A stretch of 64,000 nt of DNA from Candidatus Thorarchaeota archaeon (GTDB lineage Archaea; Asgardarchaeota; Thorarchaeia; Thorarchaeales; Thorarchaeaceae): NCBI GenBank assembly GCA_963726195.1, contig CAVSBO010000003.1, forward strand, positions 704,001 to 768,000, given 5' to 3'. This document shows, piece after piece, positions 16,018 to 21,065 of the stretch (its first letter is position 1; every line of letters begins with the position of its first letter). The notes under the pieces were generated by a model, which did not search any database, had not been told where the DNA came from, and was given only the letters and a program-made list of their open reading frames with translations. A program made the position numbers and the translations under genes.

Positions 16018-17157
16018 TCAGTCACTGTCTCTTGCGAAATGCCGTGCCACGTGAAGATACACTTCGACGGATGAAATCAATTGCTTTACAGAGATGTATT
16101 CGTTGGGTTGGTGTGCCTGCTCAATAGAACCTGCCCCACAGATCACATTCAGGATGCCTATCTTGGGCTGCAGAACAGAGCAGTCGGTGCCGAAAGTTGC
16201 GGAACGCGGACGTTGTACTTGGCCTGTCACCTTCTCAACGGCATCCACGGTCGTAGACACTATCTCCGCATCGACTGGCGTGATTACTGCCGGGAGCCCG
16301 TGTACATACTCCACCCTGACTCTATCAGAAAGGCCTGCTGCCTCCAACCTCTTTGTCATTTGTTCAAGAGTAGACTGTGTGCCTTGGCCCTTGACAAGCC
16401 TCATGTCAATTAGCGCTTCACACCGATCGGGAACCACATTGATTTTGATTCCCCCGTTTATCATTCCTATGCTCATCGTCGGTTTTCCCATCAACCTGTC
16501 TGGCTCGAATGGATAGCCTCGGTTATTCAATACCTTGAGAGCATCCATGCATAGGTTGATAGCGTTGATGCCTTCATCAGGCCTAGAAGCGTGCGCTGAC
16601 TTTCCTTCTGCGATAACTCGAACCCATAGCATTCCTTTCTCGCCCACGAGAACCTCGAGTGATGTTGGTTCTCCACATATGCCGTAACGAACTCCTGTCA
16701 GTGCTTTGCTTGCCGCTACTTCATCAGCTCCGGAGGAACCACTCTCTTCGTCGGAAGTGGCCAGCATGAGCAGCGGCTTGCTGTGCCCTTCGCCGGCATA
16801 CTCTATTAATGTCTCAGCCATTGCTGCTAGCGGTCCCTTCATGTCACAGGTGCCCCGCCCGTAGAGTCTGTCACCCACATACTCACAATGAAATGGCTCA
16901 TGTGACCATGAGTCCCTCGGACCCGCAGGGACCGTGTCTAGGTGACCGTGGAGCACCAGCTCTGCTCCGTGAAAATCCCCGTTCGAGATGATCAGGTTTG
17001 GTCTCTTCTCCGGGCCGACACTTGTGCAGGAAAGGCCGTGCTGTTCCACGTGTTCACGAAGGACTCTCGCCGCTTGGGCTTCTTGGCCGGGAGGATTTTC
17101 CGAATTCGCGGCTACGAGCTCTTCAACAAGACGAAGGAGTCGTGATGTGTCTACCAA
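16018..17157 (-). CDS. M20 family metallopeptidase (ArgE/DapE-like)
   Basis: HGHLDTVP, GRGTCDMKG, SDEE, GEPT and AHQPNE motifs. Confidence 0.92.
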   Translation of the reverse strand: MVDTSRLLRLVEELVAANSENPPGQEAQAARVLREHVEQHGLSCTSVGPEKRPNLIISNGDFHGAELVLHGHLDTVPAGPRDSWSHEPFHCEYVGDRLYGRGTCDMKGPLAAMAETLIEYAGEGHSKPLLMLATSDEESGSSGADEVAASKALTGVRYGICGEPTSLEVLVGEKGMLWVRVIAEGKSAHASRPDEGINAINLCMDALKVLNNRGYPFEPDRLMGKPTMSIGMINGGIKINVVPDRCEALIDMRLVKGQGTQSTLEQMTKRLEAAGLSDRVRVEYVHGLPAVITPVDAEIVSTTVDAVEKVTGQVQRPRSATFGTDCSVLQPKIGILNVICGAGSIEQAHQPNEYISVKQLISSVEVYLHVARHFARDSD

Positions 17158-17298
17158 AGCTGCATCAATCAGAGTGCTCTGTGGAGTACGCTAAGAAGAT
17201 TCCGACAGCAAAAGGCAGTTTCATAAGGTGAGAACGACACAGATGGAAATTGGCGGTCGATGAGGCAGTTACCCCTAACAGAGCAAAAAGCGATGACG

Positions 17299-17579
17299 AG
17301 CCAAGAGCAGGCTGAGACTTGCCACTAATTCATTTCTCAATACTGAACCTGCAACAGGTTTGGTCGAAAACCCGTTCCATACTAATCTGCCGCTTTCTCA
17401 GGTTGCCACAACTAGGCACCCCGCGATCCCAACAGGTAACGTATTGGTCCCCATTGTGGGCCTAGCCAAGCCTACCATCTCATCCTCTTGATGGCGGCCC
17501 ACTCTTGTGAAACGGGTATCGACCATTTTCTCGAGCTCCAACGGAAACTGGGCTAGCACGCTAACAAACTTGCTTGGCT
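17299..17579 (-). ncRNA. Putative ~280-nt structured non-coding RNA of unknown family
   Basis: Nested stems AGCCAAG/CUUGGCU, GGUCGA-ACCCGUUUCA/UGGAACGGGU-UCGACC, GUGGGCC/GGCCCAC and GCCAUC/GAUGGU. G-U pairs favour the minus strand. TATTTAT lies ~25 nt upstream and a U5 tract downstream. Confidence 0.55.
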
Positions 17580-17711
17580 TGCAGAATACTAGTTCTGTGA
17601 GCATAAATACCCTAAACAGGCGCAGAAACCCAGTTCGTGGCAGAAGTATGCTGTGTGGGGACGTTCCGAACCAGCAGAAACAGTGCGCTTCGAATTATCG
17701 CACTTTTGGTA

Positions 17712-17948
17712 TCAAGCGGACTTAACATTCGGCCAATCAAGGGTTGCGGCCTTTCGAATGATGCTATCAGGCCCGGGCGACGGAAACGACTTGATGAGCA
17801 GAACGCCGTCTTTGCGCGACAGGAATATCCGCTCCGCTTTCGTATCTATCACCATAGTCTCACCTTCCGCAACGAGCTTCTCCGAGTCAGCAAGCCGCAT
17901 ACTCTCAAGAGCTCCTTCAACCACTGACCGTATTGTCCCGACACCCAC
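17712..17948 (-). CDS. Small hypothetical protein
   Basis: 78-aa ORF of protein-like composition filling the gap downstream of the DapA-Fae genes; no motif recognised. Confidence 0.35.
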   Translation of the reverse strand: MGVGTIRSVVEGALESMRLADSEKLVAEGETMVIDTKAERIFLSRKDGVLLIKSFPSPGPDSIIRKAATLDWPNVKSA

Positions 17949-18044: not shown

Positions 18045-19523
18045 TCAGGGATTGTAGGCAAAGGGATGTCGAGCCGAGTCTCTTCGAGCAATGACTTCCT
18101 CAATTGGCTGCCGACCTTCCAATGCGCGCCTTATGGCAAATCGAGTGGCGCGGAAATTGTTCATGTGCACGCGTCTCGGGTTGTTTGCATTCGGGTGGAC
18201 GAACACCTTGACAGCGATTGCTAGGTCAGGCACAAGCTCTTCCGGGAGCATCCTATCGGTGATCGTCCTTGTCACAGCATCAGCGACGGCCTTCTGTGCA
18301 TATTCGAATACAAGCTTGCTATGGTGCTCGTCCGTTATTGTCACAGTGGGTGCAAAGACGGTGGTGGGGCGTATGTCTTTGATGATGCTCGATGAGTGGA
18401 AACCATCGACCTTAGTATCCGCATTGGTCACTGCAGTTTGCATAGGCCCATCCTTGAGTCCCAGCACTAAATCGACGTGAGCAACTTCCAGTCCTTCCCC
18501 GCACAGGGCCTCTCCATGAAGCAACGTCAGATCATCGATGACATCCTTGCTCAGCCCAACGGCCTTGGGATACGAGTCCGCCACAAGCGACCGATTACGC
18601 GCCTTGTAAGTGACCGGGCCTCGAGGGATGACTTGGATGTCCTCCAGCTGCGTTCTCAGTTCGTCAATGTCGTCAAAGCCCAGTATGTCTCCCTCCATTA
18701 GAGGCATTCGGGCCGAGCCAACTGGAACTCCTATCATGTTGAGAGCCGCTTTGACGGCGAGAGGGCCACCCTTGTTCACCACAATCCGGGCGGTTCGTTG
18801 GAGGCTCCGTTGAATCAGCCGAGCTTCTTTCAAATCTCCTTGGGCCAGAGCAGTCATGATTCTCATGTACCTGTCGGGAAAAATGTTTGCAGTTCCCAAG
18901 ATAACGCCGTCACAACCTGCAGCAATGCTGGACAGCACAACTTCATCATGTCCATTCACGACTTGGAAGTCCTCGGGCCTGCGAGCAAGTATCTGTGACA
19001 GGTTGACTAGATTCCCGCTGGCATCGCTAAGTCCAACCACGCCTTTGACTTCGCGAAGACCCTCTACGAGGAACCAATCAATGTTCACGCCAGTTAGCTG
19101 CGGGCAATTATACAGGAATATCGGGAGACTACCAGCGCTTGCGACCTTCTCATAGTGCTCATAGATTTCCTTCGTGGACGGTTTCATGAAATATGGAGAG
19201 ACGACTAACGCCGCTGAAGCTCCGAACTCCGCGGCCTTAAGATAAAGCTTCACCACATCAGCAGTGTATGCTGCACAAGCGCCAGCAAGTACGGGCACCC
19301 GTCCCTTGGCAGCGTCACACGCAATTCGAATCGCTTCTACTTTCTCTTCGAATGTCATGCTAGTGAATTCGCCAAGTGACGCACATGGGACTATCCCGCT
19401 GGCTCCTGCCTTGATGACATAGTCAATGAGATTGCGATATTGGGCTTCATTCACGCCTTCTTCATCGAACGGCGTCACTAATCCCGCGTACACGCCCTTG
19501 AATCGCCAAGAACCATCTGTCAT
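18045..19523 (-). CDS. DapA-family domain (Schiff-base Lys replaced by Ser) fused to a formaldehyde-activating enzyme (Fae) domain that retains its catalytic His
   Basis: N-terminal GLVTPF, CASLGEF and VVGLSDASG. C-terminal GEALCGEGLEVAHVDLVLGLKDGP...VFVHP...NNFRATRFAIRRAL...HPF is typical of Fae. Confidence 0.88.
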   Translation of the reverse strand: MTDGSWRFKGVYAGLVTPFDEEGVNEAQYRNLIDYVIKAGASGIVPCASLGEFTSMTFEEKVEAIRIACDAAKGRVPVLAGACAAYTADVVKLYLKAAEFGASAALVVSPYFMKPSTKEIYEHYEKVASAGSLPIFLYNCPQLTGVNIDWFLVEGLREVKGVVGLSDASGNLVNLSQILARRPEDFQVVNGHDEVVLSSIAAGCDGVILGTANIFPDRYMRIMTALAQGDLKEARLIQRSLQRTARIVVNKGGPLAVKAALNMIGVPVGSARMPLMEGDILGFDDIDELRTQLEDIQVIPRGPVTYKARNRSLVADSYPKAVGLSKDVIDDLTLLHGEALCGEGLEVAHVDLVLGLKDGPMQTAVTNADTKVDGFHSSSIIKDIRPTTVFAPTVTITDEHHSKLVFEYAQKAVADAVTRTITDRMLPEELVPDLAIAVKVFVHPNANNPRRVHMNNFRATRFAIRRALEGRQPIEEVIARRDSARHPFAYNP

Positions 19524-19529
19524 CTTCTT

Positions 19530-20933
19530 TCACCTCCATATCTGACCGAGCGCTGCAGAGACAGCTCCCTCGGTGGCGGCAGTGATTGCCCTTCGTTCGA
19601 GACTGTCCAAGTCCACATCAATGACCATCACCATGACGTGGCTTTGGAGCACATCAGAAGGTATCTTTCCGGCAGCCAAGTGACCAGCTACGGCCTTGGC
19701 AGCACCAGATTGGACCGGACCATAGAAAACAGACGCCTGACGCATTGATCCGATTTTCCGTCCCGGCAGCATTAAACTGGACGGCTTGACAGCTAGGTTG
19801 GGCTCAAGAATCACTGACAAAGCCTCCCTGCCGATTCTTGGGCTAGTCAACAAGCGGACAAATGCAGATCCCAATGGTCCGGCTTTGGGTCCGCACACGA
19901 TGCTAACAGTGCAAGCTTGGTTTGACCCATGTCCAAGCTTCAGACCTCGTTGCTGCTCGGAGCTCATACCAGCGTCCGACAGAACACTATTGATATCGAC
20001 CTCCTTTGCGGGGGAGACATGCTTTGAGCTCTCGATCAGACCGAGCTTCTCCAGCTCGACTCTGATCTCCTCCTTGAGTTCCGGAGTCAGCGTTCCACCC
20101 GTGTTAAGTGGCATCCGAGTTTTCCCCGCGTCAATCCCCATCATCTTGAGTGCGGCTTTCACCGGAGGAGCTCCCCCGTATCTCGTGACTATGCGGGTAA
20201 GAGTCTGTACTGAGAGCTGAATCTTGAGGGCCCCATCCAAGTCACCTTTTCGGACTTTCTTCATTAGGTCCATCCAGAGATGGGGAATAATGTTCGCCGA
20301 CGCCATGATGGCTGCATTTACGCCTGCTGTCACGGCAGAGAAGAACACCTCATCGTTGCCATCTATCACAGCAATTCGGCCCTTGAGCTTCTGCAGTAGT
20401 TCCAGCATGTAGGTCATGTTACCGCTGCTGTCCTTGATACCGACGACGTTGTCAATGTCTGCTAGATCCTCTACCACGTTCGGAGGTACAACGCCTATGC
20501 CACCCATCTGTGGAATGTTGTAGAGTATTATTGGCAAGTCGCTCTTTCTTGCTACAGTGGCGTAATGCTCGTATAGGCCCTTGTCATTCGGTTTGAGATA
20601 GAACGGAGAGACAACCAAGGCAGCATCACAGCCGATATCGGCGGCGTATTTCGATAGTTCAGTCGCCGCCTTGGTGCTAGTCTGACCCGTGCCTGCGATT
20701 ATTGGAACACGGCCGTTGACGAACTTCATCGTGATATCCAGCAGCTTCTTTCGTTCGTCCATGTTCATGTAGACAAATTCACCAGTCGTTCCGGCAGGCA
20801 CAACTCCGGTGGCGCCCTTGCTTATCGTGTAATCGATGATTTCACGATAGCTTTGTTGGATAAGGTCGCCGTCCTTATTGAACGGTGTAACGAGCGCGGG
20901 GAACACACCTTTAGGCACGAACTTCTTGGGCAT
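19530..20933 (-). CDS. DapA-family aldolase (catalytic motifs intact) fused to a degenerate Fae-like domain
   Basis: ALVTPF, AGTTGEF, LYNIP and GIKDSSG. C-terminal GPKAGPLGSAF...VILEPNLAVKPSSL...FYGPVQSGAAKAV is Fae-like but lacks the AHxD motif. Confidence 0.88.
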   Translation of the reverse strand: MPKKFVPKGVFPALVTPFNKDGDLIQQSYREIIDYTISKGATGVVPAGTTGEFVYMNMDERKKLLDITMKFVNGRVPIIAGTGQTSTKAATELSKYAADIGCDAALVVSPFYLKPNDKGLYEHYATVARKSDLPIILYNIPQMGGIGVVPPNVVEDLADIDNVVGIKDSSGNMTYMLELLQKLKGRIAVIDGNDEVFFSAVTAGVNAAIMASANIIPHLWMDLMKKVRKGDLDGALKIQLSVQTLTRIVTRYGGAPPVKAALKMMGIDAGKTRMPLNTGGTLTPELKEEIRVELEKLGLIESSKHVSPAKEVDINSVLSDAGMSSEQQRGLKLGHGSNQACTVSIVCGPKAGPLGSAFVRLLTSPRIGREALSVILEPNLAVKPSSLMLPGRKIGSMRQASVFYGPVQSGAAKAVAGHLAAGKIPSDVLQSHVMVMVIDVDLDSLERRAITAATEGAVSAALGQIWR

Positions 20934-20968
20934 CGGATTCACTGGGCAGCAAGCCGGTCCGCAGGTGC

Positions 20969-20982
20969 TATATAAGTTTCTA
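20969..20982 (-). promoter_or_regulatory. BRE/TATA promoter of the DapA-Fae pair
   Basis: Minus strand reads GAAAC-TTATATAG about 35-45 nt upstream of the ATG at 20933. Confidence 0.55.
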
Positions 20983-21065
20983 AAGAGCATGTCCCGGCAT
21001 ATGGAGAAGAAAGAGGTAATTTCTGACCTCACAAACGAATCGGCATGAGACTTGAAATGCAAGAT

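What the first reader, a model, noticed from the sequence alone, without database searches (positions are those of the whole stretch)
17285..17610. Unannotated ~280-nt structured RNA with its own promoter and terminator
Seen on the minus strand: TATTTAT at 17603-17609, then a 5' end near 17579 that pairs with the 3' end near 17299 (AGCCAAG/CUUGGCU), then a U5 tract at 17285-17289. Inside, an interrupted rod leads to a ~16-bp helix (17524-17508 with 17379-17362) closing a multibranch head with GUGGGCC/GGCCCAC, GCCAUC/GAUGGU, CCAAUA/UGUUGG and UGCC/GGCA stems. Several G-U pairs become A-C mismatches on the plus strand, which fixes the orientation. Size and paired ends recall SRP RNA or RNase P RNA, but I cannot find the SRP helix-8 CAGG/GNRA/AGCA motif or the RNase P GAGGAAAGUCC. 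Inference: a new or highly divergent ncRNA.
Basis: partly seen in the sequence, partly recalled or inferred. Interest (0 to 1): 0.75.

Follow-up and report, generated by a model that had tools for sequence, protein, structure and literature searches.

The report
Self-locking small-gene RNA of Thorarchaeota
The reported RNA is really two neighbouring genes of an Asgard (Thorarchaeota) archaeon: an ordinary rRNA-methylation guide RNA, and an undescribed RNA that in relatives is a small-protein message hiding its own start codon with its far end, and that in this genus has stopped conserving the protein but still conserves the RNA.

Summary
The interval merges two genes. Its 3' 40 nt, including the "paired 3' end" and "U5 terminator", are the antisense of a plus-strand box C/D sRNA (17251-17324) whose guides fit 23S G2446 and C2510 (E. 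coli numbering); this scan found that sRNA before in another genome. The rest is a real minus-strand unit (TATA 17603-17609, RNA about 17580-17345). SRP and RNase P RNAs lie elsewhere; Rfam has no match. The unit is the syntenic ortholog of a single-copy gene confined to this Thorarchaeota family: conserved ~65-nt leader, SD, a 54-74-aa basic protein, and a 3' arm pairing with codons 1-5 about 245 nt away (covarying; 93 Watson-Crick, 10 G-U, 0 A-C). In this genus the protein is no longer conserved (substitutions 9/11/10 by codon position; family 16/8/54), yet promoter, SD hairpin and closing helix persist and the sequence is 85% identical between species, against 51% at silent sites. Best reading: a self-locking, dual-function mRNA whose RNA role outlived its protein. 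No transcript data exist; the RNA's function is inferred.

The parts
17603..17609 (-). TATA box of the unit (family consensus TATATATA, about 26 nt before the leader)
   Evidence: conservation between G000 and G002 begins here
17345..17580 (-). Corrected extent of the structured RNA unit (5' end inferred from TATA spacing; 3' end uncertain, this genus lacks the U-rich tail seen after the 3' arm in the family)
   Evidence: z -2.42; 85% identity to G002 vs 51% at four-fold sites; tails
17527..17580 (-). 5' leader, diverged version of the family leader (family: 5' stem, two GCAUCC motifs, C-rich linker)
   Evidence: family-only model R1 finds 17545-17513 as best hit of the genome, E 0.11 genome-wide, 0.0036 in 91 kb; 5' stem only weakly supported
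17534..17549 (-). Short hairpin that covers the SD-like GGAG (17539-17536, 13 nt before AUG)
   Evidence: 7/7 pairs unchanged in G002; GGAG/GAGG are the top upstream 4-mers of the genome's genes
17509..17525 (-). 5' arm of the closing helix = start codon and codons 1-5 of the ancestral gene
17361..17378 (-). 3' arm of the closing helix
17398..17526 (-). 42-codon remnant ORF; no longer under protein-level selection, not recognised by the family protein profile
   Evidence: pN/pS 0.94 vs G002; flat codon-position spectrum; no profile hit in G000-G003; hhalign probability 0.3% for the G002 ORF
17251..17324 (+). Box C/D guide sRNA: terminal stem, degenerate C box 17260-17266, D' guide to 17278, D' 17279-17282, loop with A5 (17285-17289), C' 17293-17299, D guide 17300-17311, D 17312-17315
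   Evidence: about 22 family genomes match; boxes aligned in 24 copies and 9-bp guide duplexes with own 23S positions 2572-2580 and 2637-2645
17219..17227 (+). TATA-like box of the C/D sRNA
   Evidence: similar boxes at this spacing in relatives
17712..17948 (-). Upstream 78-aa conserved hypothetical gene (synteny marker)
16018..17157 (-). Downstream M20 peptidase gene (synteny marker and neutral-rate control)

Best explanation
The minus-strand unit is this genome's copy of a single-copy Thorarchaeota gene whose transcript is both a message and a structured RNA. SHOWN by comparison: own TATA box; ~65-nt conserved leader; SD and AUG; in most genera a conserved 54-74-aa basic protein; a 3' arm that pairs as RNA with the start codon and codons 1-5, usually 226-253 nt away whatever the ORF length; a pyrimidine/U-rich tail. 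SHOWN for this genus: protein constraint is gone while nucleotide constraint, promoter, SD hairpin and closing helix (with compensatory changes) remain. INFERRED mechanism: the SD is first hidden in a local hairpin; once the 3' arm is transcribed it zips onto the start region, so the finished transcript is a closed, untranslated, stable RNA, and protein can be made only from nascent or 3'-trimmed molecules (a timer that keeps the protein scarce). INFERRED: the locked form has a role of its own as RNA (base-pairing regulator or protein-binding RNA), which is what this genus still selects after losing the protein. The plus-strand C/D sRNA is a separate neighbour that directs 2'-O-methylation of 23S G2446 and C2510.
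For: Synteny (78-aa gene - unit - C/D sRNA - M20 peptidase) in most loci. Closing helix: 90.9% of cells paired, 7 of 12 pairs with double changes, 0/500 shuffles as high; 13 distinct arm pairs give 93 WC, 10 G-U, 0 A-C; energy in the top 0.1% of control genes. Predicted unpaired probability of the first 12 coding nt: median 0.12 full length, 0.36 without the 3' arm; window copy 0.19 vs 0.63. Family ORF codes (pN/pS mostly 0.04-0.2; 16/8/54 by codon position); genus ORF does not (0.94 and 0.66; 9/11/10; lengths 42, 68, 54 codons, ACG instead of AUG in G003). Unit identity 198/232 vs 84/164 four-fold sites (p 2e-13) and 207/239 vs 100/154 (p 7e-7). Two other genera also keep arms and span after losing the start codon (L025) or the protein (L010).
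Against: No transcript, ribosome or structure-probing data. Homology of the window's interior to the family coding region is not detectable; orthology rests on synteny, promoter, SD/start region and both arms. The inner fold is not conserved even within the genus, and the family's GCAUCC motifs are lost here, so no conserved effector surface can be named. SD and AUG persist in three of four genomes of the genus. The comparisons within the genus are two pairs and about 30 substitutions; kin are not independent.
Confidence: 0.55

Rival explanations
1. The unit is still a translated message in this genus, but the act of translation matters rather than the peptide (ribosome passage opens or times the fold, as with leader peptides), possibly affecting the downstream M20 peptidase gene or, by read-through, the antisense C/D sRNA.
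For: SD at -13 kept in 4/4 and AUG in 3/4 genomes of the genus; the U-rich tail after the 3' arm is weak or absent in this genus, so read-through across the C/D gene towards M20 on the same strand is possible.
Against: G003 has ACG; ORF length varies 42-68 codons; most family members have a U-rich tail right behind the arm and several have other genes inserted before M20.
Confidence: 0.18
2. A type I toxin-antitoxin-like module: locked toxin mRNA plus an antisense antitoxin; the window holds a dead copy.
For: Same 5'-3' locking logic as aapA3 mRNA, where only the 3'-truncated form is translated (PMC6733600); small ORF; a convergent small RNA next door whose D-box flank has the same sequence as the 5' arm.
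Against: Protein is soluble-looking and basic (helix plus three strands), not a hydrophobic peptide; single copy at a fixed core locus; the neighbour RNA is an rRNA guide and the two occur apart (unit without adjacent C/D in g4, C/D without unit in g12); no conserved antisense promoter in the alignment; a dead module would not stay 85% identical.
Confidence: 0.08
3. A plain pseudogene: the structure is a leftover of the old mRNA and has no present role.
For: Protein lost in the whole genus; interior length varies (about 165, 180, 249 nt); inner stems not maintained.
Against: Identity far above four-fold sites and above the adjacent spacer (50%) in two independent species pairs; compensatory changes in the closing helix within the genus; intact promoter.
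Confidence: 0.08
4. One reading: one 280-295-nt ncRNA with paired 5'/3' ends ending at the U5 tract, akin to SRP or RNase P RNA.
For: Motifs are present; in this genome the U5 at 17289-17285 is the first U5 downstream of the 3' arm, so read-through to it cannot be excluded.
Against: SRP RNA (C16) and RNase P RNA (C11) exist elsewhere; end pairing and U5 are not conserved and are explained by the C/D sRNA; z only -1.44.
Confidence: 0.04
5. The inverted repeat is a DNA-level feature (MITE ends, recombination sites) or a stem for excision/circularisation by the splicing endonuclease.
For: 10-17-bp inverted repeat at near-constant distance flanking a small ORF.
Against: One copy per genome at a fixed locus; mismatches are G-U on one strand only; no bulge-helix-bulge seen in the predicted duplexes (inspected by eye).
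Confidence: 0.07

Closest known systems
Type I toxin mRNAs with a 5'-3' long-distance interaction (Helicobacter aapA3/IsoA3, PMC6733600; hok/Sok)
   Same: Own promoter, small ORF, local SD-hiding hairpin, 3' end folding back on the translation start, transcript of 225-330 nt
   Different: Archaeal, single-copy and syntenic; protein not hydrophobic; the lock covers AUG and codons 1-5 rather than mainly the SD; no antisense antitoxin found; RNA conserved after protein loss
Dual-function RNAs (SgrS/SgrT, SR1/SR1P; archaeal sRNA154 of Methanosarcina mazei; review PMC12612679)
   Same: One transcript with a small ORF and an RNA-level constraint; like SgrS, some homologues lack the ORF
   Different: No target or base-pairing region identified; defining feature here is the long-range lock on the start codon; no sequence relationship shown
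Archaeal box C/D sRNAs (Dennis et al. 2015, PMC4644070); yeast snR38 guiding Gm2815 (PMC5027498)
   Same: Applies to the plus-strand part only: C, D', C', D boxes, two guides, N+5 targets at the peptidyl-transferase centre; yeast G2815 corresponds to E. coli G2446 (own knowledge)
   Different: Degenerate C box (AUGAGGC) and D' box (CAGA); not matched by any Rfam model above noise (sR7 E 8.2)
Archaeal SRP RNA (RF01857) and RNase P RNA (RF00373)
   Same: Size class and stand-alone promoter only
   Different: No model match here; both genes are found on other contigs of this genome

Membership tests
Archaeal SRP RNA (RF01857) | Match to the covariance model / helix-8 motif | tested here: not met
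   No hit at this locus; the genome's only hit is C16:201353-201661, E 1e-14
Archaeal RNase P RNA (RF00373) | Match to the model / P4 conserved regions | tested here: not met
   Genome's gene is C11:57831-58171, E 7e-46; none here
Box C/D sRNA (plus-strand part) | C, D', C', D boxes in order in 50-70 nt | tested here: met
   24 copies parsed; C and D' degenerate in the window copy
Box C/D sRNA (plus-strand part) | Guides complementary to rRNA across the N+5 position | tested here: met
   Both best 23S matches are 9-bp duplexes at the PTC; targets G2574 and C2638 of own 23S = E. coli G2446 and C2510 (K-12 numbering offset from own knowledge)
Box C/D sRNA (plus-strand part) | Fibrillarin and Nop5 in the genome | tested here: met
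   (Nop5 match in two pieces)
Box C/D sRNA (plus-strand part) | Methylation at the predicted sites | not testable with these tools
   needs RiboMeth-seq
Type I toxin-antitoxin locus | 5'-3' long-distance interaction hiding the translation start | tested here: met
   (computational)
Type I toxin-antitoxin locus | Short hydrophobic (or otherwise known) toxin ORF | tested here: not met
   Family protein is charged, alpha/beta, no Pfam above cut-off; window ORF not conserved
Type I toxin-antitoxin locus | Antisense antitoxin RNA over the leader or start | tested here: inconclusive
   No conserved antisense promoter in the alignment; the convergent RNA is an rRNA guide; no RNA data
Type I toxin-antitoxin locus | Toxicity of the product | not testable with these tools
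   needs expression test
Dual-function RNA | Small ORF under protein-level selection | tested here: met
   in the family; not in the window's genus
Dual-function RNA | RNA-level constraint independent of the ORF | tested here: met
Dual-function RNA | Demonstrated trans action on a target | not testable with these tools
   no target identified
MITE / mobile cassette | Multiple copies at variable sites | tested here: not met
   one copy per genome, fixed neighbours

The most novel reading that the evidence does not exclude
An Asgard-specific RNA class in which a small-protein mRNA closes itself into a fixed-size, untranslated regulatory RNA, caught in three lineages in the act of becoming purely non-coding: a documented birth of an ncRNA from an mRNA, and the first archaeal case I could find of 3'-end locking of a start codon.
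Probability: 0.3. Interest if true: 0.75.

Novelty: new variant of a known kind. Interest (0 to 1): 0.55.

Why it matters
Non-coding and regulatory RNAs of Asgard archaea are almost undescribed (searches found no paper on them beyond rRNA). This gives a family-wide, covariation-supported RNA architecture absent from Rfam 15, a translational lock so far known mainly from bacterial toxin messages, and a natural series (intact gene, start codon lost, protein lost) that bears on the open question of which function of a dual-function RNA comes first and whether one can be lost (PMC12612679). It can be tested in vitro without a culture. The C/D sRNA part is ordinary.

Tried and rejected
Rfam scans of the window region and of six canonical family loci: only noise-level hits. 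Sigma-70/rho-independent scan: nothing, and not suited to archaea. Sequencing runs: no RNA holder listed; DNA contigs only confirmed the sequence. Protein identity: Pfam Paratox hit in 1 of 29 members below cut-off; Atlas DUF7092 under 0.9; PDB sequence hits E>0.4; Foldseek, VIA (best Z 2.7) and Atlas fold searches gave no clear match; an Sm/Lsm resemblance was not supported against the genome's own Lsm; paralogy with the upstream 78-aa gene not supported by hhalign; no relatives outside Thorarchaeota-type proteins in 1.84 billion representatives, weaker hits are repeats in long proteins. Profile A1 contained the window's ORFs, so its G000/G002 hits were circular and were discarded. RNAalifold on the family found only the closing helix and no leader pairs; the leader 5' stem is only weakly supported. 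Leader model found no convincing second copy or copy outside the family among 150 genomes, so no riboswitch-like spread. Extended pairing of GCAUCCG with the 16S 3' region rejected on geometry. An alternative pairing AGCCAAGC/GCUUGGCU (17579-17572 with 17471-17464) is kept in G002 but not in G001/G003. A paper search for archaeal mRNAs with a sequestered start codon returned nothing (wording-dependent). Searches were input errors.

Full report
Setting. The window is G000:C3:704001-768000; homologous proteins are named Candidatus Thorarchaeota. The interval lies between a 78-aa hypothetical gene (17948-17712, minus) and an M20 peptidase (17157-16018, minus). Rfam gives only noise, and the genome's SRP RNA and RNase P RNA lie on other contigs.

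First element: a plus-strand box C/D sRNA. Read on the plus strand it is a C/D guide RNA with terminal stem, C box, D' guide, D' box, short loop, C' box, D guide and D box, parsed in 24 copies, with a TATA-like box at 17219-17227. The best 23S matches of both guides are 9-bp duplexes at the peptidyl-transferase centre; by the N+5 rule (PMC4644070) the targets are G2574 and C2638 of the genome's 23S, i.e. E. coli G2446 and C2510 (the 4-nt offset to K-12 numbering is from my own knowledge). Yeast snR38 guides Gm2815 (PMC5027498), which I take from own knowledge to be the G2446 equivalent. Fibrillarin and Nop5 are present. This scan described the same sRNA in another genome (e1-5456093); I had identified it before that look-up.

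Second element: the minus-strand unit. In most family genomes the same position holds a small gene convergent with the C/D sRNA: TATATATA box, a leader of about 65 nt with two GCAUCC motifs and GGAG at -13, and an ORF of 54-74 aa beginning MAET. It is single-copy, found in 30 of 43 family genomes and in no other family of the phylum beyond E 1e-3; the leader model behaves alike. The start codon and codons 1-5 pair with an arm behind the ORF. The arm-to-arm span is 226-253 nt in 33 of 41 loci, 198-199 in four, although the stop lies anywhere from 40 nt after to 66 nt before the arm. The helix covaries (7 of 12 pairs with double changes, 0/500 shuffles; slid controls 21-55% paired against 91%), and its non-Watson-Crick pairs are G-U on the coding strand (93 WC, 10 G-U, 0 A-C, 1 other), so the selection is on RNA. 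Such a duplex is rare among the genome's genes (2 of 2355 at -21 kcal/mol or better; window copy -21.5). Removing the arm in silico raises the accessibility of the first 12 coding bases from a median 0.12 to 0.36. A pyrimidine/U-rich tail follows the arm in the family. The protein codes by every test and folds as one helix plus three strands (pLDDT 81.5), without a recognisable family or fold.

The window's copy. Models built without this genus pick 17545-17508 as their best hit in the genome (nhmmer E 0.41; R1 E 0.11 genome-wide, 0.0036 in 91 kb, and E 0.0013 for G002). All four genomes of the genus have the unit. None is hit by the protein profile. Their ORFs differ in length (42, 68, 54 codons; ACG for AUG in G003), pN/pS is 0.94 and 0.66 against 0.21 for the M20 gene, and substitutions fall 9/11/10 on codon positions against 16/8/54 in the family. 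Yet the unit is 85% identical between G000 and G002 where four-fold sites are 51% and the upstream spacer 50%, and 87% against 65% for G001/G003. The closing helix has changed on both arms together (GGUCGA/UCGACC here, GGUUGA/UCAACC in G002) and is 14 bp or longer in all four. The window copy has lost about 86 nt relative to G002; contigs from other samples confirm the window's sequence without indels. Two further genera show the same trend: L025 lost the start codon and L010 the protein, both keeping arms and span. Unit and C/D sRNA are independent: g4 has the unit without an adjacent C/D gene and g12 the reverse.

How it most likely works. Shown: promoter, SD hairpin, long-range lock, family-level coding, genus-level loss of coding with retained nucleotide constraint. 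Inferred: the transcript can be translated only while nascent or after 3' trimming, as shown for aapA3 (PMC6733600); the finished, locked RNA is stable and has a role of its own, which is what this genus still selects (0.55). I cannot name the RNA's partner: the family's leader motifs are themselves diverged here. One point is unexplained: the family's 5' arm (GGCUGAGAC) has the same sequence as the D-box flank of the neighbouring C/D sRNA, so the 3' arm may have arisen by local duplication of the sRNA's end, or the ancestral message may have locked on the sRNA's antisense.

Comparison and verdict. It works like a type I toxin mRNA lock but fails membership (no hydrophobic toxin, no antitoxin found, single core copy). 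It meets the comparative criteria of a dual-function RNA, and like SgrS it has homologues without the ORF (PMC12612679), but no target is shown. Rfam has no model for canonical members either, and I found no paper on it. An earlier first-stage note saw the 55-aa ORF in a relative (e1-3064321) but not the lock. Novelty: new variant of a known kind; interest 0.55. The C/D part is an ordinary new member of a known kind. There are no expression data.

Noticed in passing
G000:C18 about 88255-88300 (16S rRNA 3' end): A hairpin insert of about 30 nt (GAUGGAAG...CUUCCAUC) sits between helix 45 and the anti-SD AUCACCUCCU; unusual place for an expansion or intron.
   Followed up: no
window 17309-17318 (+) and 17525-17514 (-): The family's start-codon arm GGCUGAGAC is identical to the D-box flank of the adjacent C/D sRNA; in L015 the best partner of the 5' arm is the sRNA's antisense. 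Unexplained.
   Followed up: partly
L008:1381-1577, L020:1501-1692, also L056: Tandem duplicates of the C/D sRNA, the second with a changed D guide (CGGUGAGCAG); L023 and L029 carry only the changed guide. Target of the new guide not sought.
   Followed up: partly
G000:C18:22194-22869: The Nop5 (PF01798) match falls in two pieces in different open frames: possible frameshift or assembly error.
   Followed up: no
window 17712-17948 (-): Conserved 78-aa hypothetical gene; a contig of run X2 has single-base insertions behind 17749 and 17909, so the ORF ends in the window may be affected by indels. Superficial likeness to the 55-aa family not supported.
   Followed up: partly
L011 (G025) upstream of 2964: The leader's first motif (AGUCUAGCAUCCCAUU) is duplicated with an intervening stretch in this genome.
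   Followed up: no
window 18045-21062 (-): Tandem DHDPS-Fae fusion genes, already described by this scan in other genomes.
   Followed up: no
G000:C13:134005-134095: tRNA-Sec predicted; the TGA in the ancestral frame of the unit is followed by a TAG, so no selenoprotein reading.
   Followed up: partly
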